Positions 6,421 through 48,669 of a stretch of 64,000 bases of DNA are shown here, piece after piece. The DNA is taken from the NCBI GenBank assembly GCA_964019425.1, contig OZ025794.1:1054001-1118000 (forward strand), given 5' to 3'. Position numbers and translations under genes: made by a program. The notes below the pieces were generated by a model. That model saw only the letters and a list, made by a program, of their open reading frames with translations, was not told where the DNA came from and did no database searches. Numbering within the stretch: the first letter of the stretch is position 1; each line of letters begins with the position of its first letter. This stretch comes from Flectonema sp. DT1601 (taxonomy: Eukaryota).

Positions 6421-9400
6421 CTAGTTCAATTCCGTGTCTGGGTTGTCGGTACCCGACTGCGATGGGTAGGTGCATGATTCAACAATGAAGTAAGTGAGAG
6501 TGAATCTGTGGTTTCCTCTGTTGGCGTTGTCAGCGATATCTGGGGACCAGATCTCAAATTCAACACTGAGAGTTGAAGAATCCCATGATGTGGTGATGTC
6601 CATTTGATCAGAAGTGTCTCCCTTTCCTGAACCGATAACGTTCACACCAGTGACATATGGGGCTCTCTTCAAGTAGATAACTCTCTCTCCATCTTCTTGT
6701 CTCTCAGTTTCAGTTCTGTCTCTACCTGGAGCTGAAGTTCTACGTCTTGCAACACGAGAGATAACACCAGAGTCCTCAGATCTTGGCATGTCCATAATGA
6801 AGAATCCAGATTGGATACGAACGTGAGAATGGTCACCCAAAGTGATTTGTGGTGACACAAACTTAGTACCAAAATGACGAGGTCTCATAACTCTCGATGA
6901 TCTAAAAGTGTAGTCCTGGATCATCCAACGAATCTCAAGAGTGTCTCCTTCGAAGTCCTGAAGGTCTTCGAACATGGCGACGGCGCAGAAGTTGATCGCT
7001 GGAACGCTGCGGACGACGCTGACTTCACAGTCCTCACCGGCCCATCCGAACTTGCAGTTACCACAGTCGGCACCATCCCAGTTACCCTTACACTCACATC
7101 CCTTTGCTCTGCAAACACCGTTACCGTTGCACATGACGTCGATGGTTCTTCCATTACCAGTTGGAACGGAAGTTGCTCCCGGGCATTCACCAGTTCTGTT
7201 TAGACTTGAGACAGAGAATCCGAGAATGGCAACCGAGTCAATCTGTGAAACTCTGTTGCTGTTTGGCTGAATAACCAACTTGATCACCTTCGTCTTCCAC
7301 TGCACGTTAACAGCAGAGTCTGGGTCTCCTGCACGCAACAACACCGGAGTGCTTGGGTGTGCAAACGGGTTGGCGTTTGAAGCAGGTGTGTAGATACGAG
7401 AGATGGATTCGGTGTAGAATTCCTGTTTTTTTTTGTTCTCTTTTGGTTTCCGAATATTTTTTTCATCCAAAAGAAATATCCTAAATTAGAACTAAAATAT
7501 CAACGACGATATTGATTTCGTTAAATCCCTGAAACAACTACAACAACTAACTAAAAACACATACAGGGTTCTCTCTGCTCCAAATGAGTTCGAAGTTCTG
7601 CGGATTGGTGTTAACGGAAGACGCTTGGACGGTGGTGGCGGTGGCAGCAGCGCTTGCGGTTTCCGGAGTGACGTTCTCAAGTACCTGAGCGTTGACGTTT
7701 GTTGGTCTTCTGACTGCGGCCGCGGCTCCGACAACACCAGTGGCACCCACGACATCGTTTCCTGGAGCACCTCCACCTGGGGAAGCATCAGCACCCTTCT
7801 GCGCTGGCTGAGCCCAGATGGACACGACGGAACCTGGCTCAGCGTTCTCGAATACATAAACCTGTTGTTTAGTTGTTTGCTACTTTTCTGCCTTCTTTTT
7901 TTTTTTCCTCTCACGTTCCTCCACACATTCTAATATAATAATAAAAGACATCAGTTCACTAAAGTAAATAACAACATACCTGAGACAAGTAGACTGGCTC
8001 CTCGTACTCCAACACTACGTACTGAAGCGCATTCTGCCAGTCAACCTTTCTGGTTGGCTGTCTGCATGGTCCCTTGTAAGTTCTTCTACGGTCGCAGTAG
8101 TACTGTTTTTGTTGTGGTGCGATTGTTTTTTTTTTTTTTTTTTTTTTTTCCATTTCTGACAAAGTAGAAAACTCCCCGACCGCGGTGTTCACTCACTCTT
8201 TCCACAAAACGATGATATAACAAATAAACATACCTGAACTGGTTCCCAAGCAGCGCTTCTGTGTGGTTCATCCTGCACGTAGTAGTCTTCAGCAGCATCT
8301 GGTTCACCGACAAGGTTGTGAATGTTTCCTGGAATGATTTGAGTAGAGAAGTCGAGAACTCTAATTGGGAATTGAATAGCTCTTCTTTCAACAGTGAGGG
8401 GGGCGTTCACCGTCTGTGGAGGAGCTCCTCTGGTTGCTGGTGCCGGTGGCGCCAAGCGAGCATCAATCCTTGTGCACAGCGGACCAGAGTATCCCCTGAA
8501 GCAGCGGTCACACTTTTCTCCTGCCCAGAATCCGGTTTCGAGGTTGGCGTCACAGCGGCACGCACCATTTCCGTTGCAAACTCCGTTGTTTCCGCAGTCG
8601 AACTTTCTGTCAATTCCATCGTTCACCAGTCCGCAGGTACGGAGCGATCCGTCGTTCTCAGCAGCGATGGCCTCAACGCAAGTCATACACGAACCACAGT
8701 CATTTCTATCATCAGTTCCAACATCAACCCATCCACAAACACCGAGGTTGTTGCATGTCTGACATGGACTGTCACACGCAGTGTTACAACAGATTCCATC
8801 AACGCAGTGTCCCGAAGCACACTGACGGTCAATCGAACATGGAGCAGCAGGTGCTCTCAACTGGATACAGAACTTGTTGAAACAAGCGAATCCTTCAGAG
8901 CAGTCATCGAAGATCTCACAAGTAATCTGACAGGTGTCCTGAGCCAATTCGTAGTCAGGAACTCCTCTAATTGAACCACATCTGTATGGATGGCAGTCAG
9001 AGTGCCTGTTGCAAACAATACTGCTCTTAATGACCGGTGCCGGTGGACTGCGAGGAGGAACAAAGGCATATCTGGCTGCTGGGTCGCCGTTCAAAGCGAG
9101 TGGAACTCTCAAGCACCTCCATGGGTTACCAAAGAACTCCTGTCCCTCGGTGTAGCAGGTTGGTGAGATTGCAGGAGGAGCCTGATGAGCGTGGTTAATC
9201 ACGTCAGTCGAAACACACTTACCCATGCTACACGTGTAGAAGTACAAACAGTGACCGTCTTCAGTACAGTCAGTTCTGCAAACGGCGGTTGAAAGTGGCG
9301 AGAGAGTAATGTGTTTTCCACATGCGTATGGAGTACAGTAGTCGTAATCCTTCGTGCTGCATGATTGTGGAGATCCAGCAGACCCCGTAACACAGCTTCC

Positions 9401-12400
9401 TGTAGATCTCTGACAGTGAGCCAAACTGCTACAGTGAGCATCGTTTGAACACGATGTTCTGCATGCGGCGTTAGCGAAGTAGATCTGAGTGTTGTTCTTA
9501 CCACATGCGTACAAACCACATCCGTTAGTCGCACCATTCTGGGAGAAGCAGGCGTTAGAATCCCTGGTAGTCCAAACACATCTACCCGGTTCGGTTTGAA
9601 CTCCTCCTCCAGTTGCGGTACCCGAAGAACCACACAAGTTAGCTGGCTGTGTTCTCTGCGTGGCGACGTCGTCAGTTGCTCCGATCTGCTGGAAGGCACT
9701 CAACGGAGACAATCCCGAGAGGGTAGCAAAACTACATCTGTAACCCGATTCATTTCTAGCGAGAGTTGCACCTCCCAAACAATGCCTGTCGGTGAAGCAC
9801 TCAGTAATGCATCCTCCAGTTACGGCGTCGCAAGCGAATGGCTCGCAGATGCTTGGGTCGGCCTTGCATCCACCCAGTGGCGGGGCGACAGTTCCAACCG
9901 GAGTACACTCGTTCTCAATGCAGATAAATCCTTCGACACAGTGCCCGTCAAGTGAACAGGTGGTTCTGCATCTGTCTCCAGGAATTGGAGTTACACTTCG
10001 AGACTTACCACAGACGTAGGCACCGCACTTGGTGGCATTGCCGAAGCAAGTTTCCTCCGTGACACATCTTGGGATCGTTGCCGGTGGACACCAACAAGCC
10101 TCAGTGACAATTGCCGGAAGGTATCCTCCCTGGCAATCGATGTCAACGTACGTCGGTGTTGGACACGGAACGCCGTAAGCGATTCCACCAGGCGCCTTGT
10201 CGGAACCTGGCTCCTGGGCACACGGGAACGGCTTTGGACACTGAGTTCCTTCAACGCACTGTCTGCTGTGCGAGGTTGAACCGCACAGGTTGCATGCTCT
10301 GGTGAAGGTGTGTCTTGGAACCCCAGGTACCCAAATCTGTTCGTTCAACAGCGATCTACCCAAGCAATCAACTGGAGCAGGTGGCGGTGCCAAGTTACAA
10401 AAGATTCTTGGACCAGTGCCCGGGGCGCAAACTGGTTCCCTTGGCCAGTCACATCCACAGACGTGTTCGACAACCTGGTTGACCTTCGGTGGAAGGGCTC
10501 CACGGCAGTCAACCTGTGGTGCTGGACCCCAAGTTGGGCAACTGTTGTCGGTACAGAAACCTTCAGTAGTTTGTCCGTCGTCGTCAACCTTGCAACGGAA
10601 CCTTGGCAAATCACATTCACAAGGATCGGTTCCGTCGTGACTGCATGGAAGCTGTGTCCACTCTGGTGCTGGCCAGTTACCACAGTCGACGATGATCTCC
10701 TGAGTTGCCACGTCAACCTCAACACCTCCATCGCTGTATAACTGAACCCAGTCAGGGCACGTTGCCTGGCAAGTCACATCACCGTTAGCGAAGTCCCATT
10801 CGATAGTAGTACTCAAATCGCAGACCGGAACTCTTGGAGATCCACATCCACAGAAGTCTTCTTTAAACTTCTGTTGTGGAACATGGTCCCGAAGGACAGT
10901 CGCACATGGAATGGTTTGGAATTCCAATTTAACTTCCGCACACCTTCCACAGCTTCCTCCCTCCTGCTGGAAGGCAGGCGATGCGCAGAGCCCTGGACAG
11001 TCTCCAACAAACCTCAACCATCTCCTGAGATTCCAACCACGTGTCCTTGCTTCCACAAAAGTTGCAGCAACAGTTACATCAGTAGAACTGCATCCCTCCG
11101 CACGTTCAGTGTAACAGTAACCTGGGTACTGACGAGCTCCCGCAGTGTCAGCAGCACAAACAGGCGCGTTTACAGAGGCCCTTCCACATTCCTCGGTAGG
11201 ACACGAGACGTACAGCTGAGCGTAACCTCTGCAGTCGTATGCAAGTGGTTCGGCTGGTTGGTAAAGTGCCGGAGCTGCTGGTGTTTCACGGCAGACCGGA
11301 ACTGGGGTCATTGGGCAACCACACTCATCGAGCGGCGCCTGTGGTGGGAGACAAAGTGGTTGCAATTGGGCGAAACATTCGACTACTACAGTTGGTTCGC
11401 CAGTAAAGTATTCACCCTCAACGGTCTTTCCTCCTCTAGCACACTGTGGCTCACCGGTGGCTGGGTCTGTTGGTGGGCAATTACCTGCGGTGCAGACTAT
11501 TCCAACAACTCTTCCCTGTGCGTCAAGTCGTGGAGCACCAACAACTGGTGGTGGTAGACAGCGTTCACACTCCTCGCCATCATAATTTTCAGAACACACA
11601 CACTGCCTCCATGTGAAGGTCACTAGTCCAACAGTTCCAGTGCGTTCGACACAGGTACCAGCATTGTTACAGTCCGCTGCAGTTTCACAACTCATCTTGT
11701 TACATGAGGAACCATACCATCCATCCTTGCAGATGTTACACATCTCACCAGCCCATACTCCCAGACTGGTTGGTACGACACGAGCAATTACACCGTCAAA
11801 GCTGGTACCAGCTGGTGGCACTACGGCTCTTGAAGTTGCATCGTAGACTATTCCCGGAGCAGCAAAGAGGGAGAAGTCAGCCAGAGTTGAAGCGGTGGCT
11901 GGAGAGATGATCGCAAGTGGCATGTTCAACTTCTCGACGACCACGTCGTTTGCCACCACGATGATCTCTCTCATCCATCCGCTGAATCTCAAACCAGAAG
12001 TACCGAAAGTAGTATCCTGAGCAATCTGATTGCTGAATCCTCTCATCGTAGGGCGGCCACGAGAGATGGCATTGGAGTTCATCTGAGTGAATGCCTTGCG
12101 TCCGTTCTCCAACTTCGACTTACCGAGGAAGACGCCCACCTCTCCGTCTTCCAGGTTGACTTCAACTCTCAAACGGACCCAACGGTTACCGTACATTGTA
12201 AAGAGACCTTCAGTAGTGAATTCAAGACTGGTTCCTAATGAATCAATTACTCTGACCCGAACACTAGCTGGAGTTGGTCTGCCCGCAGAATCGGTGTTGA
12301 GGTCAATGGCGATGAACCCACCGCCTTCCTGCGAGCGGTCGCTCGTGAAGATGTTCATTGGGCTGTCCTGGTTGCCATGAGACATCCTCAACATCATCTC

Positions 12401-15400
12401 AACAGAGAAGTCCTCAAGTGGTGGTACCCTGTAGTACTTAATCTGCATAGTGCTGCCGTGGTAGGTAACTTCACTTCCCAATTCACCAGTTGAAGTAAAT
12501 TCGAGAACCGTTTGTGCTCCTGGTAGATCGTCAACTTGAATTCCAACACTACTTGGAACAGTAACTATCACAGGTACGTAATTTCCGTCGCTCACAACTG
12601 GGAAAGTGATGTCACTCTGAAGAACGTATTTTCTACCCTCCGCGGTGAAGAGGGAGAGTTGTCCTCTCACATTCGCAGGAGCCCTCGCGTAAAGTACGAA
12701 CCCAACACTCGACAACTCAACAAGAGTAGATGGAAGTCCTCTGAACGAAGCACCTCTCTCGAAAGAGTTGACAACGCGACCAACACCGTGAGTGAGCTTC
12801 ATGGTGGTGGTTCCCGAGAAGGTTGACCACCTGAAGTTCTTCCTACCTCCGATGACTCCCTTAATAGATGTCGAGAAGCTGGCTGGTGCCCTCTGGGCAG
12901 TCTGAGTTGGGATGGACGCGGTTCCGGAGATCTCCCACCTCAATTGGTCAGCAGTGAATCTTACTCCCTCTCCAGAGTTTGATAACAGAACCCTCATAGA
13001 CTTTGCCAACACGCTCTGAGTTCTACCTGTGGCTCCCTCCCCGTACCACATTGGCCACGCGGTGTGACGCTGGCGTCTCACAACGGAGTCACTCTGTGGC
13101 TTGCAGTCTGAGAAGATACCAACCAATATAAGGTTACCATTTTCATCCCTACCTCCAGAGTACACACAAACAGTGGCCAATGGAGTCATGGTGTTGCTGT
13201 TCTTCAGAGCGATAATTTCGTACGTCTCCGTAGCCGAAGCGGTGACAGTCTTGAGAGCAGCGAACAGAACATCGCTGTCGATTTGAATCCACTCCGGGGC
13301 GTTTTGTGGGTTGCGTGGGTTGGTAGCGAAGATGACCGAGTTCCAGGCCTGGGTACCGCTAGTTCTAGTGAAAGCACCTCCAGCAACACCGCCGCCATCC
13401 TGAAGCGAAGTGAGCTGCCAGAGACGGCCAACAGTCGTGGCAAATAAGGAGGCTCCCCTTACAGCAGGTGCACCAAAGTCAGCAAGTGGCATGTATCCGG
13501 TGGCCTCGCCGGTACGATCCAAGTTGAACATGTTGCTGGCCAGGGTACCCGATCCGAGCTTGTACGCTCCTCCAACAACAGCTCCACCAACGTAGTTTCC
13601 AAGACGGGTGCGGAGGAATCTACAGAAGTAGTCGCTGCTGGTGGTGTCTGAACTACCGAGAGCGAATATTCCTTCGTCAGGAAGACCCAAAGCAGCGCCA
13701 GTAACACCAGCAAGGGATCCGGTTGCGTACGCGCTCAAGATTGTGTCACAAGACTCGTAGACGATGTTGTCACGTGTGTTCAATGCTGGAATAGTCAAGT
13801 CTTCGGTAAATCTCAGATAATCGTTGTTAATTCTCAAAGCCTGAACAGCGGCAGTGTTCTCGATCTGTCTGTCTCCAAAACAGGTGCACTCGCCGTTGCT
13901 CTGGCACAGACCGTGTCCAGAGCACTCTTTTCCGTTCTGCTCGTTGATTGGACAGATGCGGAACTGACATCTCTCTCCGTAGTATCCCTCAGCGCACTTC
14001 TCACAGTTGTCACCGTCCCAGTATCCCAACAAGTCGTTTCTGTGACAGTTTCTACATGGAGGCGGAAGCGGGTACTGGCCTCCGTTTCCAGAGCAGAACC
14101 GGTTTCCACACTTGGAACGGAATTCAGAATCAGCGGTGTCGCGCATGAGTCCACCACAGCAGAATGACAGAGCTCTTCTGCAACAGAAAGGTGAGAACAA
14201 GCCCTCCAATTCAGCTGGACACGACCAAGCTGGGTCGTTTCCACCACAGTATCCGTTGTTGTTGCAGGTGGCAGGAGTGCAAGTCGCAATCTTTGGTGTT
14301 GGAGGAAGAGTACGAGTTCTGACAATAGTTGGTCCACACTCAGCTACGAGTACCAACTTGCGGTCAGCCGCAGCGTCATTCTGGCGGGGAACAGTTGTAG
14401 TGTACAGGAGACTGACCTCCTCTTCTTCAACAAGCAGTGCGAGATTAAATTCATCAAAGTCAATACCGCAAGTAGTTGAAGCAAGATCCTCAGTTCTATC
14501 GCAAACCAATCTAATCGAGACGTAGTTCGAACGAGCTGGAGCGGTGTGAGCCAACGCGTTGGTGACCCAGCCAGCGCCAGTTGAAGTGGCTGGAATCTCA
14601 ACAACGAAGGTGTTCAACAACGCAGATTGCTCAGTTCCTCTGATATCTCTCCAGTACGATACCTCGACGCGACCAGTGTGTCTGTTTGCGGATGCCGACA
14701 CTCTGTGCTTAAACTGAACGGAGTATGATCTGAGTGGGATGATTCTACCAGGTTGGTGGAGACGGCAACAGTCATTGGTCTCCGGTGCCTGTTCGGCATT
14801 GCAAATATTCTGGGAAGATGTATCGCATGCGTTTCCGGTAATCAACTTTCTACCGTTCGTGACGTACCTCATGTGAAGTATCGGTTCCGCGGCAGTTGTG
14901 CTGGCAGTGAAGTAGTTTCCGATGCTTCCAGCAACAGGTGCAGCAACGACCCAGTCACCGACAAAGTTAACTCTTTCATCGACTGTCGAGACGAAGTTAT
15001 CCCATCCTCCAGTGTTTTCATTTCCAGCCACAGATGTATCAATTCCGAAGCTCTGTAGAGCTTGTCCAACAGTTAGTGAACCAGCTCCTCCGTTGGTGAG
15101 CGGGTCCATTGGAGGCTGGGCATAGTGAACAGAGAACCCAGCAACACCAACGTTGTTGAACGAAGTGGTCGTCATACTCGCTGGTGTGAGAAGCTGCTGG
15201 CCTGGTTCCTTGTTGAGGACCGAGACAGTGGCCGTGTGCATCGTGCAGTCATACTCCTTCGATGGGAAGACGGATGCTCTGGTTTCGTCAAAGGACTCAA
15301 AGCAATCAATGGAGTTGCCCATAAAATCAACTAATCCAACAGATGAGTGCCAAGCTTCCCTTGTGTATACCATCTCTTGGACATCCAAACACTTCAGAGC

Positions 15401-18400: not shown

Positions 18401-21400
18401 ACTGGCACTGACACCGTAGTCAAACGGCTCATCGAATCTGACTGAAGTGTCGTATCTCAATTCCCTCAACTCATAAGGTTCGTTGTGACGCATGTTTCCA
18501 ATTACTTCCTGATCGAATGTAATTCCCACAGGTGTGCAAGTAGCGAAAATCGTCGACGCCGTAACCCGCATGAATTCTTCCAGGCGAGTCTGAAGTTCAA
18601 AGATTTGCTTGGATTGGGTAGTCACAATAAATCCATTTCTGTCGACGTTGGTTTCCTTCTCTACGTAGACAACACCAGTATGGGTGATGACGTAGGCGTA
18701 GCGACCTGGATCGGTGGTGTACTTGGCAGTGTTTAGTACTTCAGTGGCGGTGAAGGATGTTGCCGAGCTCGGTTGGTATCCGTTTCCGTATGAGAAAGAA
18801 AACCCGGCTATAACTCTCGCGACAACACCCCCGTGGTCAATAGTAAGGACGTTACCGTACTGATCGTGTATTTCGAATTCGACGTCGAATGGCTTACCAG
18901 CAACTGGCAGTGATTCGTACTTCGTAATTCTGATTCCACGAGGGTTGCATGCTTCGAAGCGAAGACTGGTAGTTGGTGGTGCCGGCTTAGAACCTAAACC
19001 GTTAGTAATCCAGTTGGGTGTGTCGACCTGGAAGGTAGCAGTTCCAGGTCTGGTGTATCTGAGACCACTGAAAGTAGCCACTCCATTCACCAACAGTAAT
19101 CCATTTGTAACCGCCGTGTGGAGTGCTGGAGAAGCGTTGTCGGAATCGGAGCTCGTGACGATGAATCCGTCTCCCCTGGTAACTGAAACGGTCAACCTTC
19201 CAATGAGTGAAGTCCACTTGTCTGCCTCCTGACATGTTCTTGAGGCAAGGTTACCATACTCATCCCATGCCCTTACGGTGATTGAGAATTCATCAATCGG
19301 ACTGCAGGAAATACAAACAACTCCCGGACTAACAGGGTTGGTCGCCGTAATCGTCGAGGTAAGAGTCCTTGGCTTGCTAGGAGCGATGTCAACGGTCATC
19401 TCAGCGTCTTCACAGGTGATGGCGGATCCATCAGCCCTGTAAATGGTAGCCATTACCTTGATTTCCTCGGACTTCGTGTATCTTAGCGAGAAGTCGAATC
19501 TTCCGGATTCGGAGAAGGCTGAAGTCTCACCGATCAAAGATGAGGTACCCTGGGTAAGTGCCAACGTTGCCGACGCCTGTTGAACAACAGTGGCTCCCAA
19601 ACCTGAGCAGCTGGTCACGGATTCCTCAACGCAAAGCACTTCCGGTGAAGCTGCGCACTGCACCAACTTCATCGAGTACTTGACAGCACCGTTGTCAGAC
19701 TCCGGGGTAATCACCTGTTCTCTTCTAATGGCAATGCATTCTCCACCAGTTGCAACAGCCTCAACAATCTGAGCGTACGATCTGCTGTCTTCAAATGGAT
19801 GCTGACCAGCTGGAAGCCTCACGCCGGCGTCGTCGACCCAGAATCCGAGAGAATTTAAGTACAGGTGGCTGTCTCTGGTGATCAACTCACGAACATTGTT
19901 TACGTATCTGGTGGAAACACCAACAACAATTTCCTGAGAAAACAACGACGAATCGAATAGAGGACCGACCATTGTTTTCCACTCACGGTGCTGAGGGAAA
20001 AACGGAAGACTTCCCGCAGGACAGGAGCCCATGCGAGTTGACACACAGCGAGCAGAGTCCTGGACAACAGCGCTGCCGTAGGTATCACGTGCGGTGTAGG
20101 TGAAGTCGAAGCTTGTACCGGCTCTGGCGCACTGCTTTGGTCCTCTGCGGGAACATTTATCAACCCTTCCTGGCAACACGGTCACCGCAATCTCACACTC
20201 CTCAGCGAAGTCAGATTGGATCGTAATCTTTCTTCTCACAAGGTTGGGCTGATCGTCATCACTGAAGACTCCAGGAATTCTTGAATTGAACTTCATGCGA
20301 GGGAACCAAACCTTTCCTGCTTCAGATAGGACTCTAGTTGGGTCAACAGTCAAAGTGTAAGTAGTAACACCATTAGACTTCCTCTCACTGCTCCATGCTG
20401 AAACAGTCATGGTATCGAAGTAAGAAGGGAATGCCGTTTCCGCCTTGAACAAAGTGTCGTCAGACACAACCATCTCACCACTTTCATCAAAGACACTGAT
20501 GGAGATGGTAGCAGCCTGCATACCCCCTGCAATGTTGCTTCTAATGTAAGCAGACAGATCGAATTCCTCTCCAGCTCTGACGGTAAGTTGCTGGAATGGA
20601 CAAATAACTTCGTCGTTTTTGACTACAACATCACAGCTATCACCATCAAGCGCACCATATCCATCGTAAACCACGAGTGTTGTCTGACCATCGCACCTTT
20701 CGTTAGCTGAGGCATCAGCCAAACACGCACTTCTGACATCAGCATCTGGAATCCAAATAGCATCATCAAAGAGAGCGTATCCAACATCAACGTCGTTAGT
20801 GAGGGAACCACTGAGAACTCCTCCCCTTCCGGCGAAGGCATTTGGAGCGGTTCCGCCAACCCTCGGGTCCACGTTAGCAAAGTCAGCTGCCCGTGTCGAT
20901 ACGGCGTATCGAACCTCTGAGTATGAAGTTCTCAACTCGTAGACCGCAAAAGTCCCAGGATTGGTGCACTCCAATTCACCACCTGGACATCCGACCCGAC
21001 ACTGAAATGCGTCTGCATCAGGGTAGGTTGGAACATCTGACCTGAAACAGTAACAACCGGTGTCCCTAACGATTGCAAAGTCCTTCGCTCCCTCATCGGC
21101 GCATGCAAGCATACACTTGTTGAGGTTCAACGCTCCCGAGATCGTAGCGTAGTTTCCACCGGACAACGATCCCGTCTTACAGCTAAAGTCGCTTACCGAC
21201 ATTGGGTTCTCAGTCGTGCAAACGTTTCCATCGGCATCCAACACAGCGACGTTCAAATCGAATATCGTTTGCCTCGTTCCGACAACTGGAATTGATCGGG
21301 TTTCGTCGTTGCACGCCTTTGGAGAAATGATCTGGAGCCTTCTTGGGATACAATGGTTGACCTTGATGGCCTGTGGCATGGCAGGCCTGATAGCAGGAAC

Positions 21401-24400
21401 TCCGTCAAGGGAAATAGTGAATGCGATGCCAGAGTCGACAAGGGAGTGAGCTCCCTTGATGACGGCATGACCTTGGACTAAGATCAAGTTAGACATCTGA
21501 GTGTACTTCGTTTCTGGGTCGTTGTTCACATACTTCTCTGGCTGCAACGTTCTCATCGACAACGCCAGTGCGGCGTTGGCGTGAGTGTTAAACCTGCCCG
21601 ATCGAGCGTCGGTGATTCTGTTACCACACTTGTCACGGAGCTCAACTTCGTACTGGAACGGTTCGCAGTCACCGTTTCCGTATGATCTGATTTCCGTTGG
21701 CGGCTGAGTAAGGGTTTTCAGCCTGAGAGCAGGACCCGTCAGCATCTTAATTTCTGGGAGAGAGTTGCAACAGACTCGCGGAGTCGGATGCAAGCACGAG
21801 TTGCCAGAGCAGGGCCTGGAGCACTGCGAAAGTCCCCCCTGAGATAGTTGGGACGCATCCGCAACCCCAGATGATGTGGGGAACCCTTCCACCAGATCCG
21901 TGTTGACGACGTAGATTCTAATGTCTTCAGCCTTGTCGTAAGTGAATCGGAAGGTAACAAGACCATTCACAGCGAGCACAGCATTTCCTCCAAGTTCACC
22001 AGTTCCCTGTCTCAATTGAGCAACAACTCTGTGAGAAACTGGAACCACGTTGTTCCAGAAATCAACAATCTCAAGCCTGACCTCTATCGGACCATCAGCA
22101 GTCCCGCACTCTGATACGTGCCACTCAGTTGGAACAGAAAGAATGTTCATGTGATGAGGATCGTTTGGAATAACAATAATGTCCTGACTGTAGGAAGGTC
22201 CACATCTCGACATCGTAGAAGGAATGGAGTGAGTGAACTCGAATCTAATAGTCTCAGCTCTGTTGTGCCAGAGACCTCCGAAGTTAACTCTGTGGCTGAC
22301 GATAGCCTCACGGAATGGTTCAATGATGTCCCTAACGATGACGTTCAATCCGTTCCCGACCGTAGTTTGGCAAAGTCCCTGAGCAGGTGGGTACTCCCCA
22401 TCAAAGATACATCCACACTGGTTGTCGAATATAGCAACAGAAGTAGCACCCTGGTCACGGCAGCACCTGTTGCAACTAGGTCCAGTTGTGTGAATCATGC
22501 TCGTCAGTCTGAACTCGAGAGGGACCTTCACGCATCTTCTCGCTCCCAAGAAATTTCCGGCATCAAACAAAGTTCCCTCCGGAGTTCCCAACGTAGGCGT
22601 AAACACGTCAAGTGTTAGGAAGGCATCCTGACAAGGAATACCACCAATTTGACCAGTAATACCATATGCAACCTGTGCCCATCCATTGTCTGGGATGTAT
22701 GACAGTCCTCTGAATAGCTGACAGGTGTTTGCTGGAACCTGTTGGGTCACATCTTCGGCATCAGCAAAAGAGACCCCACGGGTGTTAAAGTTCCAAGCCG
22801 TGCAGCGGGCATCGCCCTTGCATACAGACTGACAAGCGTTCCAGTTGAGGGCGTCGACACTCCTGATGAGTCTGCCCTTAGTCTTTACTGGTAATCTCCA
22901 CTGGTTCCTCTGGACATCACAGTACGCAACGTTTCCAAATCCCCCACTTGGGTTTGAAACACCGTCGTGAAGGGCAACAGTAACAGAGAACACAGTTCCC
23001 GCTCTCACAGTAGCTGGCTGCCTTTTAATCGCAAACTTGCATGCGGTACCTGGGACAACGTTAATCGGCCATGGCTCACTGGATTGGCAAACACCATCCC
23101 TGTGGACGGCTGTCACCCAGAACACGGCAGGGGAACTGTATACGGTCCAGTCAAGGCCACTAAATGAAGCCCCGAAGTATCCCGAGTACTGCCCGTCAAG
23201 TGCTGCTGCGGCAATTGGGGTGGCATCCGCAAGAACGTCTCTTGGACTGTTAATGTTGTTGACAAATCTCGATTGCTTCAAATAGATTTCAGTTCCAGTG
23301 CTTACCTCGTCACCGTTAGCAAGCTGCTCACCACCCGGTCCGGTGACAAGAACAGTAATGGCGTTAATGTTGTGCATCGTGTATGGGGATGCGTTCATCT
23401 GCTTTCCAGCGATCATCGTTCTGCTGCCCGATCTCGGTGAGCTGGATGCCGGGATGGTCAACTTACAACGAGAGCACTTCATAGCGTTGCTCAGTACCAA
23501 TGGCTTAGTCCTGCATACCTTAGTTGGTGGGGTGGTCTGGCAAGTAACAGTAACAGACATCTGAGCCAGCATCTCAGTTGGGGTAACCTTGTTGACCCAG
23601 GTACAGCTCCCAGTGCAATCAGCCTGGACTCTGCCAGCGCAAGCAGTAGCGTCATCCCTTGAAACACAGTAACCATCAATCAGCGGATTGCCAATTGCAA
23701 TGTTTCTGAGTGACGAGACCGTAAATCCGCTGAATTCAACGTTTGCCGTAGTCATTGGAACCTGAAGTGGACCAGTTAATCTAATGCAGTCGGTGTCTTC
23801 AGGCCTGCATTTAACGGACTCGTCAGAAGTGGCAACAACTCCTCTGGCCCAGGTACATCCAGCAGCGACGCACTGGGTTCTTCTCCAGTGTCTGGTACAT
23901 TCAGCGGATCCACTGCACGCAGTCTCGTGAGGGCGAAGATCCCAAGCAAGCTTGTTCAAACTCCTCTCTGGGTACTCGAGATACCAAACATCGGCATCAC
24001 CAGCACACGTGATTGCTGGACTGGCATCCCTGAACCTGTACCGGCACTCAATTGAAGACTCAGAGTATCCTCCAAAGAAGAACAATGCTTTGTTCTGGCT
24101 AGGTGCGTGGTTGAAGAAGTGAGCCCTGCGACCGCCATATCTTTGTGGCATCTTAACTTCAGGCTTCCACTCACATGGAACAATGCAAGCCCTGACGTCC
24201 GTGTCCCAAGCGCACCTGTAGGCACTTTCGGCTTCGCAATCTTCCTGAGTGGCCAACATGCCGCAAGCGGCAGCGTCTGCATTGCATGCTGCCTCACTAC
24301 CACGTTCAGAGCAACGGTCAACGCCAGGTGATTTCGTTGTTGAAGAGATAAGTCCGAACCTTTCAACACATCCCTCAGTTCCAACTGGTGCCATAAAGTC

Positions 24401-30400: not shown

Positions 30401-33400
30401 CATCAGGTTTTCAATGAGCGTGTCGGAAGTAATTCCAGCAGGGCACGAGAAAACAGCGTTAGTAGTTCTCCTAAGCTGAAGCATCAGTCTAAAGCACGGG
30501 GTGTCGAGCCCAGTCTCAAGAGAGTGGTAGGCAAATCCTCCAAAGGTACCTTCTCCATCACTAAGTTGAACTAATGGTCTGTAAGGAGTTAACTCACCAG
30601 TGCCATCAGCGTGAGTTCCTCCAACCCTGTATAGGGCGTTCACAACTCTCGTTTGACGGGTGTTGTCGGCAGGGTTCAAGTACTTGCACATATCAGGTCC
30701 AGAAGCCACGGCACCGTCATCAGTTGGAATGATGTTTAGCTTAGATTTGCTCCACATGACAGCGTTCTCAAACTTATCGTAAACGTTAACATTCATTTCC
30801 GGGAATGGCACGAGAGCTGGGTGCACGTCCGGGTAGTTCGAAATTGCAATTCTGGAGATTGGACCGGCGTGGAAGCAGATTTCTCTGGAAACGCGAGTCT
30901 CTTCAACGCTTCCAGTAGTTTGGATGTTCACAGTCAAGCACTCAGCGATGTTGGACGTGAGTGTGAACTCGAGCACAGGGCCGTCACGGTTAATGATTTG
31001 CGGTGGTGAGACGGTAACCCTGTCTCCCTCGTCCCTGAAATCACGAACGTTGAGGAATGCGTTTTCTTCTGGGTAACCATCAATGCAAACACTCGTTGAA
31101 GGAATCACATCTCCACCGTCGGAAATCGACGACTCGACAATGTTCTGACAGTCGACTACGTTAGACGAGTGTTGGTGGGATTTGAAGAGCCCGGCAACAT
31201 CTGCCAAGTTACCACCAGCATCAAGGACATGAACAGTGTATGACAATTCCTGTCCAACCGCTGCCTCTGGACATGTGACTCTGCTCGACGTCTGCTGACA
31301 TCTCTGACTGTAGTCACCAACAAGGATTCCGTTGTCGTTTTCATAACAAGGTTCGTTGATGAGGACGAGTCTCCTTGGCCTATTAGGGTGAACAGTAATG
31401 GCTCTGCAGGTAGCAGCGACCAACACTCTCGGGAATGCTGTTTCTCTCCTGTACACGGCTAGGTAGCGAACGTCACTACTTATACCAGTCTGGCTAGTCT
31501 GACAATTTTCAGACGATCCATACTCAGTGAGTGACTGAGGGGGTTGCATAGTACAGATACACAACTCAACACCAGCCTCAGGTTTAGTAATTATGAATGT
31601 TGGGTAGATCCCACATTCAGCCGCACATTCAGATGGTGAGAACGTAGCCTTGCTGGTTGTCTTCATACACACTTGTTGATCGACCAACGAGAACCTTGAG
31701 AAGTCAGTGTAGCAGCCAACGTGTGAGTATGCATTAGTCGGGGTGATGTCGGTGGCAGGGGCAACGGAAACCGAAAGAGTCAAGGACTCGGCGACCTTGT
31801 CGGTCATGACTCTCAACGAAGTGGTACCGTCAATAATTTCCTCGCGAGTTGATCCCAAAAGCATTCCCGGGGAGTCCTCGGTCAAGGAAATCACCATATT
31901 GTCAGCTCTGTCAGCGTTCAAGTTTCCGTAAATGTCTCTAACTGATGCCTGAACATCAATAAAGTCCATCGCGAGCACATCTGATCTGTCGGTAGCGCAA
32001 CTCAACTGGAAAGGAGCAGCCGGGTAGACATTAACATATCCTTGGAATCTCTGAAGTCTGACCTTGTTACCGTCTGGTCTTAAGCAGGTTGGACAACTGC
32101 ACTCAACAACAATCTTTAACTGACCAGCAACACTGAATCCTGACGAGAACGAAACTTCTCCTTCTGCGTTAGTAGTTCCAGAAAGGGTATTAAAACTGCT
32201 TGAGAATCTGGTTGGAACGTAGTCAGAGACCGAATTGTCGAAGATCGAGGCACTTGCAACACACTGCATTCCCCTGTTTCTAGCAATCATTCCATTCTTG
32301 GTTCTTAATCCAATCTTCCATCTGAGCTGCTCACACGAAGAAACAATGGCGGTGTCACATGCTTCAATGCATCTAGGAATGTCTTCCTTGACGTACACTT
32401 CGTATGGGTGTCCCGGAAGAACAGCAATAACTGCTACCGCCTTCCTAATAGAGTGTGTGGTCGATGTAACGGTCACCCTCAAAGAGCTGCACCGGCCAGT
32501 GTAACCCTCTGGGAACCAAGTCCCTGGCTCCATCGTTAGACCTTCCGACATGTAGTTGATGGCTCTCGTAAGAAGAGTTGTAGAAGTTGAAGACCAGGAC
32601 TTCACAACAACGTTGTTGCAGTCTGTGATGTCAAGTTTCCAACCGACTTGGTTGTCCGAGTTCCTGAATGCAGCTTCAACTATTTCGAACCTGAAAGTGC
32701 CTGGTTCCCTGATAGGAACACCCGATCTGATTGTTGGAGGAGACCTGGTGATAGCGAATGAAGCACATCCCATCCTTATCTGACAAATTCCATCAGACAC
32801 ACTCGCAGCAGCAGTAGTGGCCCGAACTGTGAGCGTCGTCTCCTCACAAGTACCATCAGCAGGAAGCACAGAATTCGTAAATTTCGCTCCCTTGCAGCCT
32901 GATGGACAGTTGTATCCAGCAGTGCACTCTGGCTCAGGAATATCCAAGCTGGCGTCATTGCATCCGAGATTTGCATTGACCACGTTTGCAACCTGCATCT
33001 GACGAACAGTATATCTGATACCCTCGGGCCAGTTCTCTCTCTTCTCAATCGCATTGATCTTAACGATGTAGTATTCACCCTGCTCCACTCTATCTTTAAG
33101 TGCGTTGACAACAGTCTGTGGTGACGCAGCTGGCTCGCATTGCCAGTTCGCTGCATTCTCGATGCTCAGAATGTGATCCCGATCTCTTGGAGGACCAACC
33201 AAGTCAATAACGCTTGCCGCAGGTCCGAGAATTTGAACAGAGAATAGAGGCATTGGCAATGCGCTTGTGACCGACTTAGTGTAGCATTCCTTGGTGGAAA
33301 TTGAACCTTCGGCCATCGAAAGGACGTTGACATAGCTGTTGTCGTTGCCTCTCGCACCTCTGACGTAGTTTCTGAACGGATCGTTTTCTAAGATGACATC

Positions 33401-36400
33401 CAAGACATCTCTCCCACTCATGAACAGTTCACACTTTCTGACGTTCTGTGGTAAATGTGGAACACATGAAGTAGATACAAACATGGAGTTTGAACGTTCG
33501 TAGACTGCGAGTGCATTTCCACCAATAACGAAGGTACCCTTCGAGGTAGAACCACCACAGTAATCGTTTGTTGCGTAGCATTGCGACTGATCGAGAGCTG
33601 TTGCCGGTTCGGCGGCAAAGCACTTGCACGTGAAACTTCCATCAGTCTCTGGGCAAGTCATGGACCAGAATGCGCTACCATCACAGAAGGCTCTACACTC
33701 AGACACCACTGTGAACCTGCTTACCTTGTCTCCAGTTTGGTCTTGGTAGCAACCCCTGAATACGCTTCCTAACGGTGAAGGTGTGAAACCAGTTACACTA
33801 ACCACAACAGATGTTTCAGATGTGCATCCCAAATCGCGAACAACTACTCCCCCCAGAGTAACTGACAACGACCTACCAGAACTGCATCCGCTAGTTGTGA
33901 CGAAATTCACGCCGAAGTTCGAAACATCAGATGTTCCCTGAACATTAAACCCTTCACTGAATGCTTCTGACTGAACAAGAACCGCATACACTCCCGCTGT
34001 GCCAGTTTCCCTGAGGCAAGGCATTGCGGCTCCATCGCTGCATGTACCAGCGGCACTGTCAAAACCAGCGTTAGAACAACAGCCGCCGGTGTAACTGTGC
34101 GGGTGAGATAAAGGACAATGTTGTGGCACAGCACAATTGCAGGTTCCAGTGCAGCAATCCCCCCCCAAGTTACTCCTGCACATAGCGCTGAATAGTTCAG
34201 TCATTGCTTCCACCGACATGGAAAGAGATCCGCTGTATGTTTTTGTGCATCCGACAGCCTCGAATAAGGTCTGGGCGTAGATTTGCGTCACCGTTGTACT
34301 CTCTTCGTCAGAGTATGAGTATCCCAGGCAACCGCTTTCCCGCGTGCAGTGACTTTCGCACAGTGGACGATCCAACTGAAGGCAGTCGGCAGCGTTGTAC
34401 GAATCCTTTGTAGTGTCACAAACGTTCGTACTGTCCAACACGTAGGAATCGAAAAGGTTCACCTCACCGTTAGCAGTTGGCACACAAGTGCTGCCAATGA
34501 CGTCGTAACTCCCGGCGAACTCAACCTCGCGTCGATCTCCAGTAACTTCAAGCTGCAACCTTCCGCCCTCAATAACCTTGATGTAGAAGTTGTCTTCAAA
34601 TTCTGATTCTTCGAGCTTGTCGTTTGATGAGTAGTCGCAGTTGGCAGCTCTACCGGTATTCTTAGCACCTCCCTGGTAGAGAACACCGTGTGAGTTTGGG
34701 AAACACATTCTCTCAGGAAAGTAAATGCGACTGCCTCCAACAAACGGTTCCAACTCAGGACCGTTTCTTGAAAAGCAGCACGTGCCATGCGGGCAGATCG
34801 TATCACTCATCGTAGCTCTGTCACCCCACAAGCAACCAACTTGCTGACACCGACCCACTTCAGTTAACGAAGCACAGCAGTCAGTTGCCGACAAGTGAGG
34901 ACAGATCATCTTGAGGGTACTGGTGAGTGCCTTCCTACCATTTCCGGTGATGCTGACATCTTGCGAATCACAAACCGGATTACCGTAGCAATCCAGAACT
35001 GGGAACTGCATTGGTCCGATTTCAACGTTGTACAAGGCTGTTTCTGGACAGGTACCCTCACCAATTCTGCAGGCATCACCCGCAATCACCTGGAGATCAA
35101 TCTTTAAAGGTCTTCTCTCGAGCGTACCAGAGCGAGCCCTGACGATAAGGGTCCTGGCCTTTGTGACAATGTCACGGTTATCCTCCTTAGTCAATATTAC
35201 ACGGCATCCTCCTTCGGTCCTTGCATAACAGACACCAGCAGTCCAGAGCGGAACCTCCGAATCTTCGTTCTCATAGATTGCAAGGTAAATGCCATCAGTC
35301 AAAGGGGCAAACGCATTCATGTCAGTAACACCCTCAGCGAAGATGTGAATATCAGCACCAGCCTTGCTCTCGAGGAAGTTGCTCTTCATTCCGTCAACTG
35401 TGAAGTAAGCACGAAGACCAGTAACAGGTGATGGTTTCCACTTCAACAGAACGCCGCTGGCAAACAGGAATCCCGTGCTGGCGCTGGCCTGAACCATAAC
35501 AGTTGGGTAGTCTTCTCCGAATCGTGAGCGGGTAAGGACAACACCGTTGAACTCTAGAACAGGGTCTCCCTTGTAGATACCCTTCTGGGACTGAATTGTT
35601 CCGTCAACTCCAACAACTGCTAAATTAATTTCGAGTTTTGGAGCGAACTCGCAGAAGAATGGAAGGGTATTCTCACACTCGATTGCTGCATATGGGTAGT
35701 AAACGGTGTTGTGGTCGTATGAGATGCAGCCATCCATACTTGGCTTGGCCGTGTAGTCAGCTGTTTCGAGGTAGCCGGCGCTGTTTGGTTCCCAAAGACC
35801 GGCGCAGCAACCCTTTCTGAATTCGAAAGAGTAATCCGGGTTAGCCGGGTTTCCGTACGTGCTGCTCCACCAGGTAGAGTCAGAACCAGAGTCCCAGATC
35901 ACGCTAAGCGGAGTTGAAGCGCCCGCCACTTCGAGACCAGTCCAGTATGGCTGTGGAGACTTCATAGCGAAAGTCGACTCAACAGCAGCATTAGGAATGG
36001 TAGCCAAGTATCCGTAAGTGTTCGAATTCCGTCCCATCATGCGGCAGTACTCTTTCGCTGCGGCCTTGGTTGCTGCCTGAGGGACGTATGTGAAACAGCG
36101 TTTGTCCTTTACAAAGTTTCCATCATTGTTGTCGCTGTCGTCCTTAATCATTGCACCCCATGGGCAGGTTGAATAATCGGAAGGTGCGCTGGTTGGATTG
36201 CCTAGCAGGTCAACGATGTCTACCCTGATGTCAAATCCGATTCCACTTTCAACCTCGGTACCGTTGGAAGGGCTTTGGATACGAACGCGGTCCGGAGTAC
36301 CTGGTCTGATGATGAGAGAAGTTCTGACGTGGCTAACACCCAAGTTTCCTCCAACTGCGTAAAATAAGACCTTCGCATGAAGGGATCTAAAGATGGTTCT

Positions 36401-39139
36401 AAAGGTAACTTCTCCGGTGGCAGGGTCAAGTCTGGAAAGGTACTGTCCCTTGCAGGACTCTCCTGCCTGAAGTGCTCCTGCTGGAGGCGTGGCAACGATG
36501 TCAGTTGCGGCAGATTCGACCTCCCCCTCAATCAAGCACATTACAATCTGGTTTTGCGCACCAATTGCTACGACTGTGCGTCCGGCTTGAGTGCGGGTGG
36601 TTGCTTGAATTATAAATTCACGACGTTCTCCAGCGACAGTGGTCTTTCCAGCTTCGTCTTTGAATTGAATATCAATCCTCTCCAGTTCCTGACGAGTTGA
36701 GCAGTATCTCGTTGCAGAATAAGGACACGACACAAATCCCCTGATCGATGAAGATCCAAAGCCACCAACATACACCAATTCTTTAAAACCTCCCTGATCG
36801 GTACAGGTAACAGTTGAGTTCCCAACTTCCATAATGAGGTCAAATTTGTCTCCCCGAGAAACGCAGGAATATGGTAAACACTTACCAGAAAAAGGCTGCG
36901 GGTTGGTCACACGATCGGCGTATTCCATGTTTGACGTGAAACACCCAGAGGCCGATCCAGCAATGCTGTAAGGTCGGCAGAGAGAACCAGTGCAGTCTTG
37001 CCCTGCCCCATTTAAAATAGCAGGCGCCAGACAACTCGATTCAGCACCCACCGGCTCGTAAATAGGACAGTGGTCCATCATTTCGTCACAACCACCATTT
37101 TGACGAGCCAATCTCTCTGCAATATCAGCGGGTATAGACCTCAGAAGTCCGACCTTCCACATGGCTGGGGAAGTGTACTCCAATGGAACCGTAGGAGGAC
37201 TGTTACTTGAGAAGAACATCCTTCTACTGTTGCAAGTTCCAATGCGACCTCCGTCGACAGTACACTGCTTAGCAGTTAAACGTGATCCGGCGCCAGGTTG
37301 GAGGATACTTTCAAAGAAACACTGGTAGTTGTTTAAGCTTGGTTGGTGGTACCAATGGTAGCAAGTCTCTCGTGCCATCACGCAACCGGCATCGAAACCC
37401 CACGAGAGGTATTCTGCAGAATTGAAATCAGCTCTGTAAAAACCGGTGTCATCAAGCATAGCAAGAGTAAGACCGGAAAGCACCGCACCAACATCAACTT
37501 GCATGTTCATAACTTCTCCCCTCGTAATACGACGCTCCCACAGGGCTGTGAAGCGCGAAGGGAAGTCAGTAAAACCGGTACCGTATCCCATCGCCGTGTG
37601 CGTGTAATCCTCAACTTCCAATCCTGTCATCGACTGGCAATTGAAGTGAAGTCTTGCCTGCTGGATAACCTTCTTAGAGCTCACAAGAGTAACCTCGGTA
37701 GGCACACCGATAGGAACTGAATTCCGCCATCCATCAAATCCCGTCCTGTACAATGCATCGGTGGAAAGCCCGTTGTCGTGTTGGTTGCGGTTTCCAGCTG
37801 TGTCGAAAACACGTTTACTGTGACGAGTCTGAGTCTGGAACATCAAGTCAGCTTCCACGGGGGTAGGTGCCTGAGTGTAGTCGTCACTCCAGTCAGCGTA
37901 TTTTTCAGCCAGTTCAGGTGTCCATCCGAGTGCCTGGACCAACTCGTGAAGTACAACAGATGCCATGTAATCAGTGTCTCCGAAGATTTGATCAGGCTGG
38001 ATCGTTAGCATACCAACAATTGGTCTAAAACTCTGCTTTGCAAAGTGACAAGGCCATGCAGCAGCGTTACTCTGAATTCTAGTACCATCTCTGTTGTAGA
38101 TCAAGACCGGGTTAGCAGCGACGAAAAGGTAAAAGTCTGCAGTGGTAGCAGTCAAAGGAAGGTTGCTAAACACATCGGTAAGCCCGTCCTTGGCGTTACA
38201 GTTGGCCTGGTTGTTAGTAACCTGAATAACGGATTCCCCCTCGGATCTCTTCAAGGCCATAATACCAGTGCGAATGCGTTTGATGGCTTCAGAAACGATG
38301 GTTCTAATTCTAGTCAACTTCGTGTTATCAATAACCCACGTACTCTCACAGTTGTAGGTCTGACCGTCAGTAGTAGTATACGCGTCCTTGGCCTCACTCG
38401 CACCGCCAGTGGCACCGTGGGCAAGTTGAATAGTTTCTCCGTTTGATCCCTGACAGGCAAACCTTTGGGAATCAAGAAGAGAATAATCAACATGGATGTT
38501 CAATGGCTCTTGTGTTTGAACGCTCGGCACGGTGAAAGTTTCGCAGTTATCACAAACGACAGCATCCTGTCTTGCCTGAACATCACTGTTTGGTTGGTGT
38601 TGTTTTTGTTTGTTGTTAATTTAAACAAATCGTTTCCCTTTGTAAGGACGTCAACGCAAAGAAAAACATCTTTCCTTTGTCCCTTGCTCATATGAACGAT
38701 TGCGAAACAGGAATAAAAACAGATATTGAGACGGCGAAAAATAAAATTCATGCGACTTAAAAAATGAATCGTCGCCTCACTATAATGAATAACTTACAAC
38801 ACCAGCTTTGGTTTCGCTTGTGCGCACCTGGAAAACAAATCTGTAAAGGAAAGTAAAACGCTATTGCTGCTGCTGCTCCCGCGATTCTCTTTCGCTCGGG
38901 AAACTAACATTAAAGAAGAAGGGGGGCAAAAAAAAAAAAAAAGGGTATCTCTCGTTTCAATAAAATAAAGTAACATACGCAGCAGTCTTTTGGAAAATTG
39001 ATCCTTGGAGATGCTTTACATCTTGATGAAGCTCTCCAAACTGACGCAGTCCTTTCGGACTGCATGTTGTGACAGGTGCAGCATCAGCCTGCCCGAAAAG
39101 GCAAAGAATTGCCCCAACCGAGATAATAGCAGATTTCAT
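6421..39139 (-). CDS. Giant secreted multidomain protein (about 10,654 aa) with N-terminal leishmanolysin/GP63-like M8 domain; proposed exons 39139-38979, 38827-38798, 38585-8234, 8102-7980, 7861-7565, 7422-6421
   Basis: The 10,113-aa open frame joins flanking ORFs through GT...CAG introns that keep the frame (donors GTATGT x4, GTAAGT x1; phases 2,2,0,0,0). Joined CDS = 31,965 nt = 10,655 codons. Exon 1 encodes a signal peptide (MKSAIISVGAILCLFGQADA). The three 3' introns interrupt one continuous domain (VVLEYEEPVYLSQ|VYVFENAEPGSVVSIW...IDSVAILG). Confidence 0.88.
7030..14300 (-). other. C-terminal region of the giant protein: EGF-like domains, LamG/concanavalin-like domain, Cys/Pro-rich repeats, discoidin-like beta-sandwich
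   Basis: EGF motifs CSGHGLCQSNGECTC, YWDGDNCEKCAEGYYGERC, CNGNGACRC...WAGEKC, CNGNGVC...WDGADC. LamG-like DFSVEMML...RWVRLRV...FSGWMREI at about 11.9-12.4 kb. Five CxxY/FxC...CxxxCxxDxxC repeats at about 8.8-10.0 kb. Confidence 0.7.
23980..25420 (-). other. Kelch-type beta-propeller within the giant protein
   Basis: Repeated Kelch blades: GRLGHAAH...FVFGG, LAGGSSVVYKNKLWYFSG, ARVEAEGFLIGTRMYVVGG, FSFYGG, LFFFGG. Confidence 0.78.
35645..36170 (-). other. C-type lectin-like domain within the giant protein
   Basis: CPWG...RCFTYV...AKEYC...YLATIPN...PYWTGLE...C...ECENTLPFFCE cysteine and WxGL pattern. Confidence 0.8.
36700..38500 (-). other. Leishmanolysin/GP63 (peptidase M8)-like domain with degenerate zinc site
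   Basis: Family motifs ADFYLFVAA, AAAWPC...RPIVG, VVLHELVQALGW, ARLHFNC...GLEVED, LWERRITRGEVM, LTLAMLDDTGFYRADF, LSWGFDAGC, DEMMDHCP. Confidence 0.9.
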
Positions 39140-39170
39140 ACTGCTAGTACACAAAGAGGAAAAAGGATAT
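39140..39170 (-). promoter_or_regulatory. Pyrimidine tract plus AG immediately before the start codon (candidate trans- or cis-splice acceptor)
   Basis: Minus strand TCCTTTTTCCTCTTTGTGTACTAGCAG-T-ATG. A comparable TTTATTCAG lies about 20 nt upstream of the SDR ATG. Confidence 0.45.
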
Positions 39171-48172: not shown

Positions 48173-48203
<31 letters not shown>

Positions 48204-48478: not shown

Positions 48479-48488
48479 CATACTTGTA

Positions 48489-48642: not shown

Positions 48643-48669
48643 AAGGCACCCACCACGCTGCGTCATCCT

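What the first reader, a model, noticed from the sequence alone, without database searches (positions are those of the whole stretch)
6421..39139. ~10,650-aa secreted mosaic protein headed by a GP63/leishmanolysin domain
Seen: signal peptide, M8 domain, C-type lectin, PAN- and WSC-like modules, about 20 Ig-like repeats, Kelch propeller, CBM-like and fibrinogen-like segments, LamG-like domain, EGFs, Cys-rich repeats and a discoidin-like sandwich. There is no hydrophobic C-terminal TM/GPI segment (ends ...GTDNPDTELN). Established: typical GP63/invadolysin proteins are some 600-700 aa and often GPI-anchored. Inference: a >1-MDa extracellular glycan-binding scaffold (adhesion, prey capture, coat or extrusome material). 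The repeats are highly diverged, so it looks like an old maintained gene rather than a recent expansion.
Basis: partly seen in the sequence, partly recalled or inferred. Interest (0 to 1): 0.75.

Follow-up and report, generated by a model that had tools for sequence, protein, structure and literature searches.

The report
Giant secreted rod, dead GP63 head
A marine flagellate, likely a diplonemid, carries a conserved six-exon gene for a 10,654-amino-acid protein that is predicted to be secreted and starts with a Leishmania-type surface-protease domain missing two of its three zinc-binding histidines, so it likely works as a long adhesive or structural rod outside the cell rather than as an enzyme.

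Summary
The gene is real: six exons with GT-AG introns give 10,654 aa (1.15 MDa), with a signal peptide and no membrane anchor. Collinear orthologues exist (43-50% identity, ~96% of aligned cysteines kept, one shared intron position), and a transcript-derived protein from the kinetoplastid Apiculatamorpha runs across the three 3' exon joins and ends at the same place. A sister group of equally giant, collinear proteins keeps the intact site. The stalk holds at least 22 repeats; one folds like an invasin-type Ig domain, and CTL-like, PAN, WSC and Kelch modules sit just behind the repeats' conserved hairpin. N-glycosylation sequons are purged (10 seen, 74.5 expected), which fits passage through the ER. 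CBM-, fibrinogen-, LamG- and discoidin-like labels and glycan binding were not confirmed. Best reading: an unanchored adhesive or structural rod of the cell coat; extrusome lattice is the bolder rival. No expression data and no paper on the family were found.

The parts
38979..39139 (-). Exon 1: start codon, signal peptide (about aa 1-20), start of pro-region
   Evidence: followed by GTATGT donor; signal peptide judged by eye and hydropathy
38798..38827 (-). Exon 2, 30-nt micro-exon (least certain boundary)
   Evidence: TTCCAG acceptor, GTAAGT donor, keeps the frame; no transcript support
8234..38585 (-). Exon 3, 30,352 nt, one open frame
   Evidence: orthologue piece P0005 reads into an intron at the same 3' position
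7980..8102 (-). Exon 4
   Evidence: aligns in order to transcript-derived P0100
7565..7861 (-). Exon 5
   Evidence: aligns in order to P0100
6421..7422 (-). Exon 6: end of sandwich-like domain, EGF, C-terminal domain, stop
36677..38551 (-). GP63/leishmanolysin (M8) domain, predicted inactive
   Evidence: Pfam PF01457 E 2e-32; 1LML E 7e-9
37934..37948 (-). HELVQ in place of HExxH (second zinc His is Gln)
   Evidence: HELIQ in P0003, HELVQ in P0006
37541..37543 (-). Leu412 in the column of the third zinc His
   Evidence: His in 143 of 149 hits; Leu in window, P0003, P0006
15074..36649 (-). Stalk with at least 22 diverged Ig-like repeats (DxxGN hairpin), other modules placed within it
   Evidence: reversed-sequence control max -2 bits; the profile finds 21-23 repeats in unrelated-by-construction P0007-P0009
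26147..26470 (-). One repeat, folded: 7-strand Ig-like sandwich of invasin/filamin/S-layer type
   Evidence: AF2 pLDDT 78; Foldseek SbsC E 6e-5; VIA invasin 1CWV Z 10.3, rmsd 2.3, 92 aligned; Pfam Big_1 E 0.007, below cut-off
35627..36175 (-). C-type-lectin-like domain, starting 12 aa after a repeat's hairpin
   Evidence: echicetin E 0.007; same place in P0003, P0006-P0009, P0014
23927..25504 (-). Kelch propeller (approximate bounds)
   Evidence: Pfam PF24681 E 3e-17; KLHDC2 E 4e-5
22667..22924 (-). PAN/apple module, 9 aa after a hairpin
   Evidence: PAN_1 above cut-off, PAN_4 E 2e-5
34220..34600 (-). Second, weak PAN-like module
   Evidence: E 0.03, below cut-off
20912..21199 (-). WSC module, 15 aa after a hairpin
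   Evidence: PF01822 E 2e-5, below cut-off
31427..31729 (-). Second WSC-like module
   Evidence: E 0.013
11897..14989 (-).
   Evidence: 42-57% identical to P0005; no relevant match
8440..11674 (-). EGF-like and cysteine-rich tail (about 10% Cys), the best conserved region
   Evidence: 49-67% identical to P0005; matches P0100 at E 7e-51
6424..7020 (-). C-terminal ~200-aa domain of no named family, no TM/GPI signal
   Evidence: shared with P0100 to the last residues; Atlas nearest clusters unnamed, scores 0.87-0.89, lead only

Best explanation
This is one 10,654-aa protein whose GP63 head lacks two of three zinc histidines; it is likely secreted through the ER without an anchor and likely serves as a non-proteolytic, rod-shaped adhesive or structural subunit of the cell's outer coat (mucilage, hair coat or glycocalyx). 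Shown: gene model, lost ligands in three orthologues, repeat array, Ig-like fold of one repeat (predicted model), collinear orthologues and paralogues, sequon depletion. Inferred: 22-26 tandem Ig-like domains would form a stalk of roughly 100 nm (domain length from general knowledge); CTL-like, PAN, WSC and Kelch modules would project from it as binding sites; the dead head, which is among the best conserved parts, would bind peptide or protein partners without cutting them; the disulfide-rich tail and C-terminal domain, kept since the diplonemid-kinetoplastid split, would cross-link subunits or dock them on the cell.
For: Zinc site: HELVQ/Leu in the window, HELIQ/Leu in P0003, HELVQ/Leu in P0006, against HExxH in 131 of 140 hits that cover the motif and a third His in 143 of 149; H268 mutation abolishes L. 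major GP63 activity (PMC11957388, section 17). The head stays 50-56% identical to P0003 versus 27-48% for the stalk. In the M8 tree 8 of 13 members of this clade lack at least one catalytic residue, by six different substitution patterns, against 2 of the other 32. P0100 (Apiculatamorpha, transcript-derived) joins a degenerate head directly to the same tail without the stalk. Ig-like fold as in invasin, intimin, filamin and S-layer proteins. N-x-S/T 10 seen vs 74.5 expected, control motifs at chance (N-x-x-S/T 75 vs 78.9; N-P-S/T 4 vs 4.4); same in P0003, P0005, P0006, P0009; 139 other M8 hits pooled 743 vs 715. [quoted passage not shown]
Against: No localisation, expression or binding data exist for this gene. 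No sugar-binding motif was confirmed; several domain labels found no match. Only one of 22 repeats was folded. Three equally giant collinear paralogues keep the full catalytic site, so the architecture can serve an enzyme. Sequon depletion is weak or absent in P0008 (28 vs 33.9), P0007 (16 vs 25.7) and P0014 (5 vs 9.9). The data cannot tell coat from extrusome.
Confidence: 0.5

Rival explanations
1. The protein is a building block of the euglenozoan tubular extrusome, whose envelope opens into a fibrillar lattice on discharge.
For: Unanchored, disulfide-rich, sequon-poor, with Ig folds like lattice-forming S-layer proteins. Apiculatamorpha, which has a relative, has trichocysts with a fibrillar mesh, and Diplonema species have tubular extrusomes in starved stages (passages of PMC7859406 and PMC5845003).
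Against: Only two named taxa bear on the distribution; no presence/absence test could be run. Both taxa also have coats, scales or hairs. The 20-21 nm mesh reported for Papus is much shorter than a ~100-nm stalk.
Confidence: 0.2
2. The dead copy is the non-catalytic partner of the active giant paralogue (P0007-P0009 type); together they form a long-reach protease assembly for attacking or digesting prey.
For: A sister group of 7,200-8,000-aa reading frames is collinear with the window protein at 22-31% identity, has 21-23 repeats and an intact HExxH, third His and Met-turn.
Against: Not shown that both types occur in one genome (no genome is held for the window); no interaction tested; the Apiculatamorpha relative is degenerate too.
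Confidence: 0.17
3. The head is still an active peptidase that uses other metal ligands.
For: First His, the catalytic Glu and the Met-turn are kept in all three orthologues.
Against: Gln and Leu replace two of three histidines; relatives lose other catalytic residues in other ways. No model of the head was built.
Confidence: 0.07
4. A polyprotein precursor cut into many separate secreted modules, or several genes misread as one.
For: Extreme length; modular make-up.
Against: One uninterrupted 10,117-codon exon; modules sit inside repeats; neither of 2 R-x-K/R-R sites is kept in the orthologue, and none of the 3 tribasic runs that could be compared is kept whole; P0100 joins head and tail in one transcript-derived protein.
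Confidence: 0.06

Closest known systems
Leishmanolysin/GP63 (MEROPS M8, PF01457; PDB 1LML)
   Same: Signal peptide, pro-region and a full M8 domain with Met-turn and cysteine pattern.
   Different: Two zinc histidines lost; no GPI signal; 10,000 further residues.
Inactive T. cruzi GP63 groups G9/G10 (PMC11957388)
   Same: Expressed GP63 pseudo-enzymes proposed to keep non-catalytic roles.
   Different: They lose the Glu, keep normal size and mostly a GPI site; this one loses two His and heads a megadalton mosaic.
Bacterial invasin/intimin and S-layer Ig-like arrays
   Same: A repeat folds like invasin D1 (Z 10.3) and SbsC domains; a CTL-like domain accompanies the Ig array.
   Different: Eukaryotic, signal-peptide secreted, no beta-barrel anchor, modules placed inside the array; shared fold does not show shared origin or function.
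Apiculatamorpha spiralis EP00759 P012537 (P0100)
   Same: Degenerate M8 head, EGFs, Cys-rich tail, same C-terminal domains, no anchor.
   Different: 2,811 aa, no Ig stalk, other substitutions in the zinc site; uncharacterised.
Diplonemid multi-pass 'leishmanolysin-like' proteins (D. papillatum KAJ9460312.1, Lacrimia lanifica P0001)
   Same: Nearest named M8 relatives.
   Different: 2,400-3,200 aa, 7-9 hydrophobic segments, C2 domain in two of four, no Ig repeats, sequons enriched.

Membership tests
M8 peptidase (active leishmanolysin) | Homology to the M8 domain | tested here: met
   Pfam 113 bits vs cut-off 21; 1LML E 7e-9
M8 peptidase (active leishmanolysin) | HExxH motif | tested here: not met
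   HELVQ
M8 peptidase (active leishmanolysin) | Third zinc histidine | tested here: not met
   Leu412; His in 143 of 149 hits
M8 peptidase (active leishmanolysin) | Met-turn | tested here: met
   GEVMN
M8 peptidase (active leishmanolysin) | C-terminal GPI signal (typical, not universal) | tested here: not met
   No hydrophobic C-terminus; same end in P0100
M8 peptidase (active leishmanolysin) | Proteolytic activity | not testable with these tools
   needs an assay
Invasin/Big-type Ig-like repeat arrays | 7-strand Ig-like sandwich | tested here: met
   one repeat:
Invasin/Big-type Ig-like repeat arrays | Pfam Big_1 above cut-off | tested here: inconclusive
   17 bits vs 34.9 for 1 of 9 repeats scanned alone; Atlas leads 0.81-0.87
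Calcium-dependent C-type lectin | CTL fold by sequence | tested here: inconclusive
   echicetin E 0.007; no Pfam hit
Calcium-dependent C-type lectin | EPN/QPD and WND sugar-calcium motifs (recalled) | tested here: not met
   read by eye in 7 family members: no WND; an EPN in the window copy is not kept in P0003 or P0006
Fibrinogen-like, LamG, CBM, discoidin modules | Profile or structure match | tested here: inconclusive
   no relevant hit; not folded

The most novel reading that the evidence does not exclude
A family of giant GP63-headed rods, some active and some repeatedly turned into pseudo-enzymes, is the structural material of the euglenozoan tubular extrusome or hair coat; this gene would be a first molecular component of that organelle and would show the free-living, structural past of the GP63 virulence family.
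Probability: 0.2. Interest if true: 0.82.

Novelty: new variant of a known kind. Interest (0 to 1): 0.6.

Why it matters
Diplonemids are among the most abundant marine predators or grazers, yet the molecules of their coat, glue and extrusomes were not found described in my searches. This gives a concrete, conserved, megadalton candidate with a built-in contrast (dead versus active giant paralogues) that can be tagged or knocked down. It also widens GP63 biology beyond small GPI-anchored proteases: in free-living relatives of Leishmania the domain heads giant secreted mosaics and multi-pass membrane proteins and has lost catalytic residues several times.

Tried and rejected
No RNA holder or other run was listed for window 30000-39300; no evidence either way. 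No whole genome is held, so co-occurrence of dead and active paralogues is open. A scan of metagenome contigs with the Cys-rich tail matched 73 stretches, none a relative. A search for bacterial loci with the repeat alignment could not run, so origin of the repeats by gene transfer is untested. NCBIfam gave only Kelch-related and chance hits. The first repeat model had boundaries shifted by one strand and gave no clear match (best Z 5.3); the corrected one did. Self-BLAST printed nothing; phmmer self-comparison linked only 2 Ig repeats and some EGF/Cys repeats, so the repeats are very diverged. Rfam: nothing in the window. Earlier scan findings: none. Nine paper searches listed no paper on this family; subscription papers and supplements were not seen and the D. 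papillatum supplements may bear on it. In D. papillatum only the membrane class turned up, but clustering and length limits make that no evidence of absence. No complex prediction and no model of the M8 head were run.

Full report
Observation. The minus strand holds a stop-free frame of 10,143 codons. Reading the ends gives six exons whose join is one frame of 10,654 aa, 1.152 MDa, pI 5.1, 4.2% Cys. All five introns are GT..AG, 118-212 nt and AT-rich; four start GTATG and four end in an A-rich ...ACAG. (G)/GTATG is the commonest donor in three Diplonemidae species and an A-rich 3' tract was reported in one Diplonema (PMC12621601, passages). The nearest named M8 relatives come from Lacrimia lanifica and Diplonema papillatum. 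The source is therefore likely a diplonemid (inference). No tandem DNA repeat lies in the gene.

One gene, old and maintained. Searches with the stalk and the C-terminal third each returned one protein, P0003 (6,864 aa) and P0005 (3,134 aa), both listed with a longest contig of 501,902 nt. They align in order: 2,755 of 6,371 columns identical with 241 of 254 cysteines kept, and 1,500 of 2,984 with 161 of 166 (about 20 columns past the intron are noise). P0005 reads into an intron at the same codon as the window's exon 3. P0006 is a third orthologue piece (40-51%). P0100, a transcriptome protein of the prokinetoplastid Apiculatamorpha spiralis, aligns in order across the exon 3/4, 4/5 and 5/6 joins and ends within a few residues of the same point, so the spliced tail and the lack of a TM/GPI end are native. 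Exon 2 has no outside support.

The head is a likely pseudo-peptidase. Pfam M8 scores 113 bits. Against 1LML the motif HEMAH aligns with HELVQ and the third-histidine region with ...FTALWERR. Among the 149 new hits of a full-library HMMER search (1,316 hits at E<=0.001, best 150 listed, P0001 counted apart), 131 of the 140 that cover the motif have HExxH and 143 of 149 have the third His. The window, P0003 and P0006 share Gln and Leu at these two places and form one clade (FastTree 1.0; same topology in IQ-TREE; 45 of 124 sufficiently long sequences used). Mutating H264, E265 or H268 abolishes L. major GP63 activity, and inactive GP63 groups are known in T. cruzi (PMC11957388, passages and section 17). 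Yet the head is 50-56% identical to P0003, above the 27-48% of the stalk, so it is kept for something. Against this reading, the first His, the Glu and the Met-turn remain, and no assay or model of the head was made.

A family. P0007-P0009 (7,231-7,962 aa, cut by introns or gene calls) are collinear with the window protein at 22-31% identity, carry 21-23 repeats by a profile built without them, and keep HExxH, third His and Met-turn. P0014 has a degenerate head followed by repeats with the CTL-like insert at the same place. P0100 has a degenerate head and the tail but no stalk. P0001, P0010, P0011 and P0013 are a multi-pass membrane class. In this clade 8 of 13 heads lack a catalytic residue, in six different patterns; 2 of the 32 other tree members do. 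I infer a head-plus-tail ancestor older than the diplonemid-kinetoplastid split, with a stalk of variable length and repeated loss of catalysis; rooting was by midpoint only and the P0100 node is weak (69).

The stalk. An iterated profile seeded on DxxGN hairpins grew from 10 to 22 repeats in the window; reversed sequences scored at most -2 bits; four more candidates fell below threshold (scores of included copies are inflated by construction). A first model with shifted boundaries matched nothing clearly. With corrected boundaries one repeat gave a seven-strand sandwich (pLDDT 78) matching S-layer SbsC (E 6e-5), filamin, macroglobulin and titin domains and invasin D1 best (Z 10.3, rmsd 2.3, 92 residues; ranks 2-12 are within 1 Z). 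The CTL-like, PAN and WSC modules begin 9-15 residues, and the Kelch region about 40 residues, after a hairpin, which suggests insertion into a common loop (inference). The orthologue has two extra PAN-like inserts by eye. The CTL-like module matches echicetin and lacks the WND-type motif that I recall for calcium-dependent lectins. The CBM-, fibrinogen-, LamG- and discoidin-like labels got no support; the C-terminal domain is nearest to unnamed clusters (lead only).

Secretion. N-x-S/T occurs 10 times against 74.5 expected (minimum 51 in 200 block shuffles), while five control motifs are at or above chance and N-S/T is 67 vs 77.6. The shortfall holds in each of 11 blocks along the protein and in P0003 (5 vs 45.8), P0005 (4 vs 19.3), P0006 (3 vs 26.6) and P0009 (17 vs 59.3); it is weak in P0007, P0100 and P0014, absent in P0008, reversed in the membrane class and absent in 139 other M8 hits (743 vs 715). 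Selection against exactly the glycosylation consensus is most simply explained if the whole chain passes the ER lumen and must stay largely unglycosylated (inference).

Function. Diplonema species have a mucilaginous attachment coat, a glycocalyx, a hair coat and stage-specific tubular extrusomes (PMC5845003, passages); Apiculatamorpha has scales, a flagellar fibre layer and trichocysts with a fibrillar mesh (PMC7859406 and PMC8061765, passages). An unanchored, disulfide-rich, non-catalytic rod fits coat or glue (0.5), extrusome lattice (0.2) or partner of the active paralogue (0.17). Nothing here separates them directly. Keyword passages of the D. papillatum genome paper (PMC10161547) and a feeding-apparatus paper (PMC13615690) held no mention of peptidase or leishmanolysin in the main text. 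Nine searches listed no description of the family; supplements were not read.

Verdict. Real, conserved and apparently undescribed; built of known folds, with a known kind of pseudo-enzyme head, in a new architecture. New variant of a known kind; interest 0.6.

Noticed in passing
window 41682-45191 (-) and 39884-41650 (-): A 1,169-aa ORF with a reverse transcriptase domain (Pfam RVT_1 E 1e-8) and 25 copies of a 21-nt repeat, followed by a 588-aa ORF; the RT motifs look Penelope-like to me (recalled, untested). It sits 750 nt upstream of the giant gene.
   Followed up: partly
window 46400-64000: AT-rich satellite arrays (138-139-nt, 154-nt, 66-nt units) and a ~1,302-nt unit repeated at least four times at 50661-54842; no Rfam match.
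   Followed up: partly
window 1032-1967 (-): Short-chain dehydrogenase (adh_short E 3e-34), same strand, downstream neighbour.
   Followed up: no
P0001, P0010, P0011, P0013: A diplonemid class of 2,400-3,200-aa proteins with an M8 ectodomain, 7-9 hydrophobic segments and, in two, a C2 domain; two have degenerate zinc sites. The layout recalls polycystin-like receptors (recalled, untested).
   Followed up: partly
P0007, P0008, P0009: Giant paralogues with intact GP63 active site: candidate >0.8-MDa tethered metalloproteases, worth their own study.
   Followed up: partly
P0014 (JGI, 26.6-kb contig), P0027: Further degenerate M8 heads branching near this family; P0014 has the same Ig-plus-CTL-like start, from an unnamed organism.
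   Followed up: partly
P0104: A 1,253-aa hit with two M8-like stretches in one chain.
   Followed up: no
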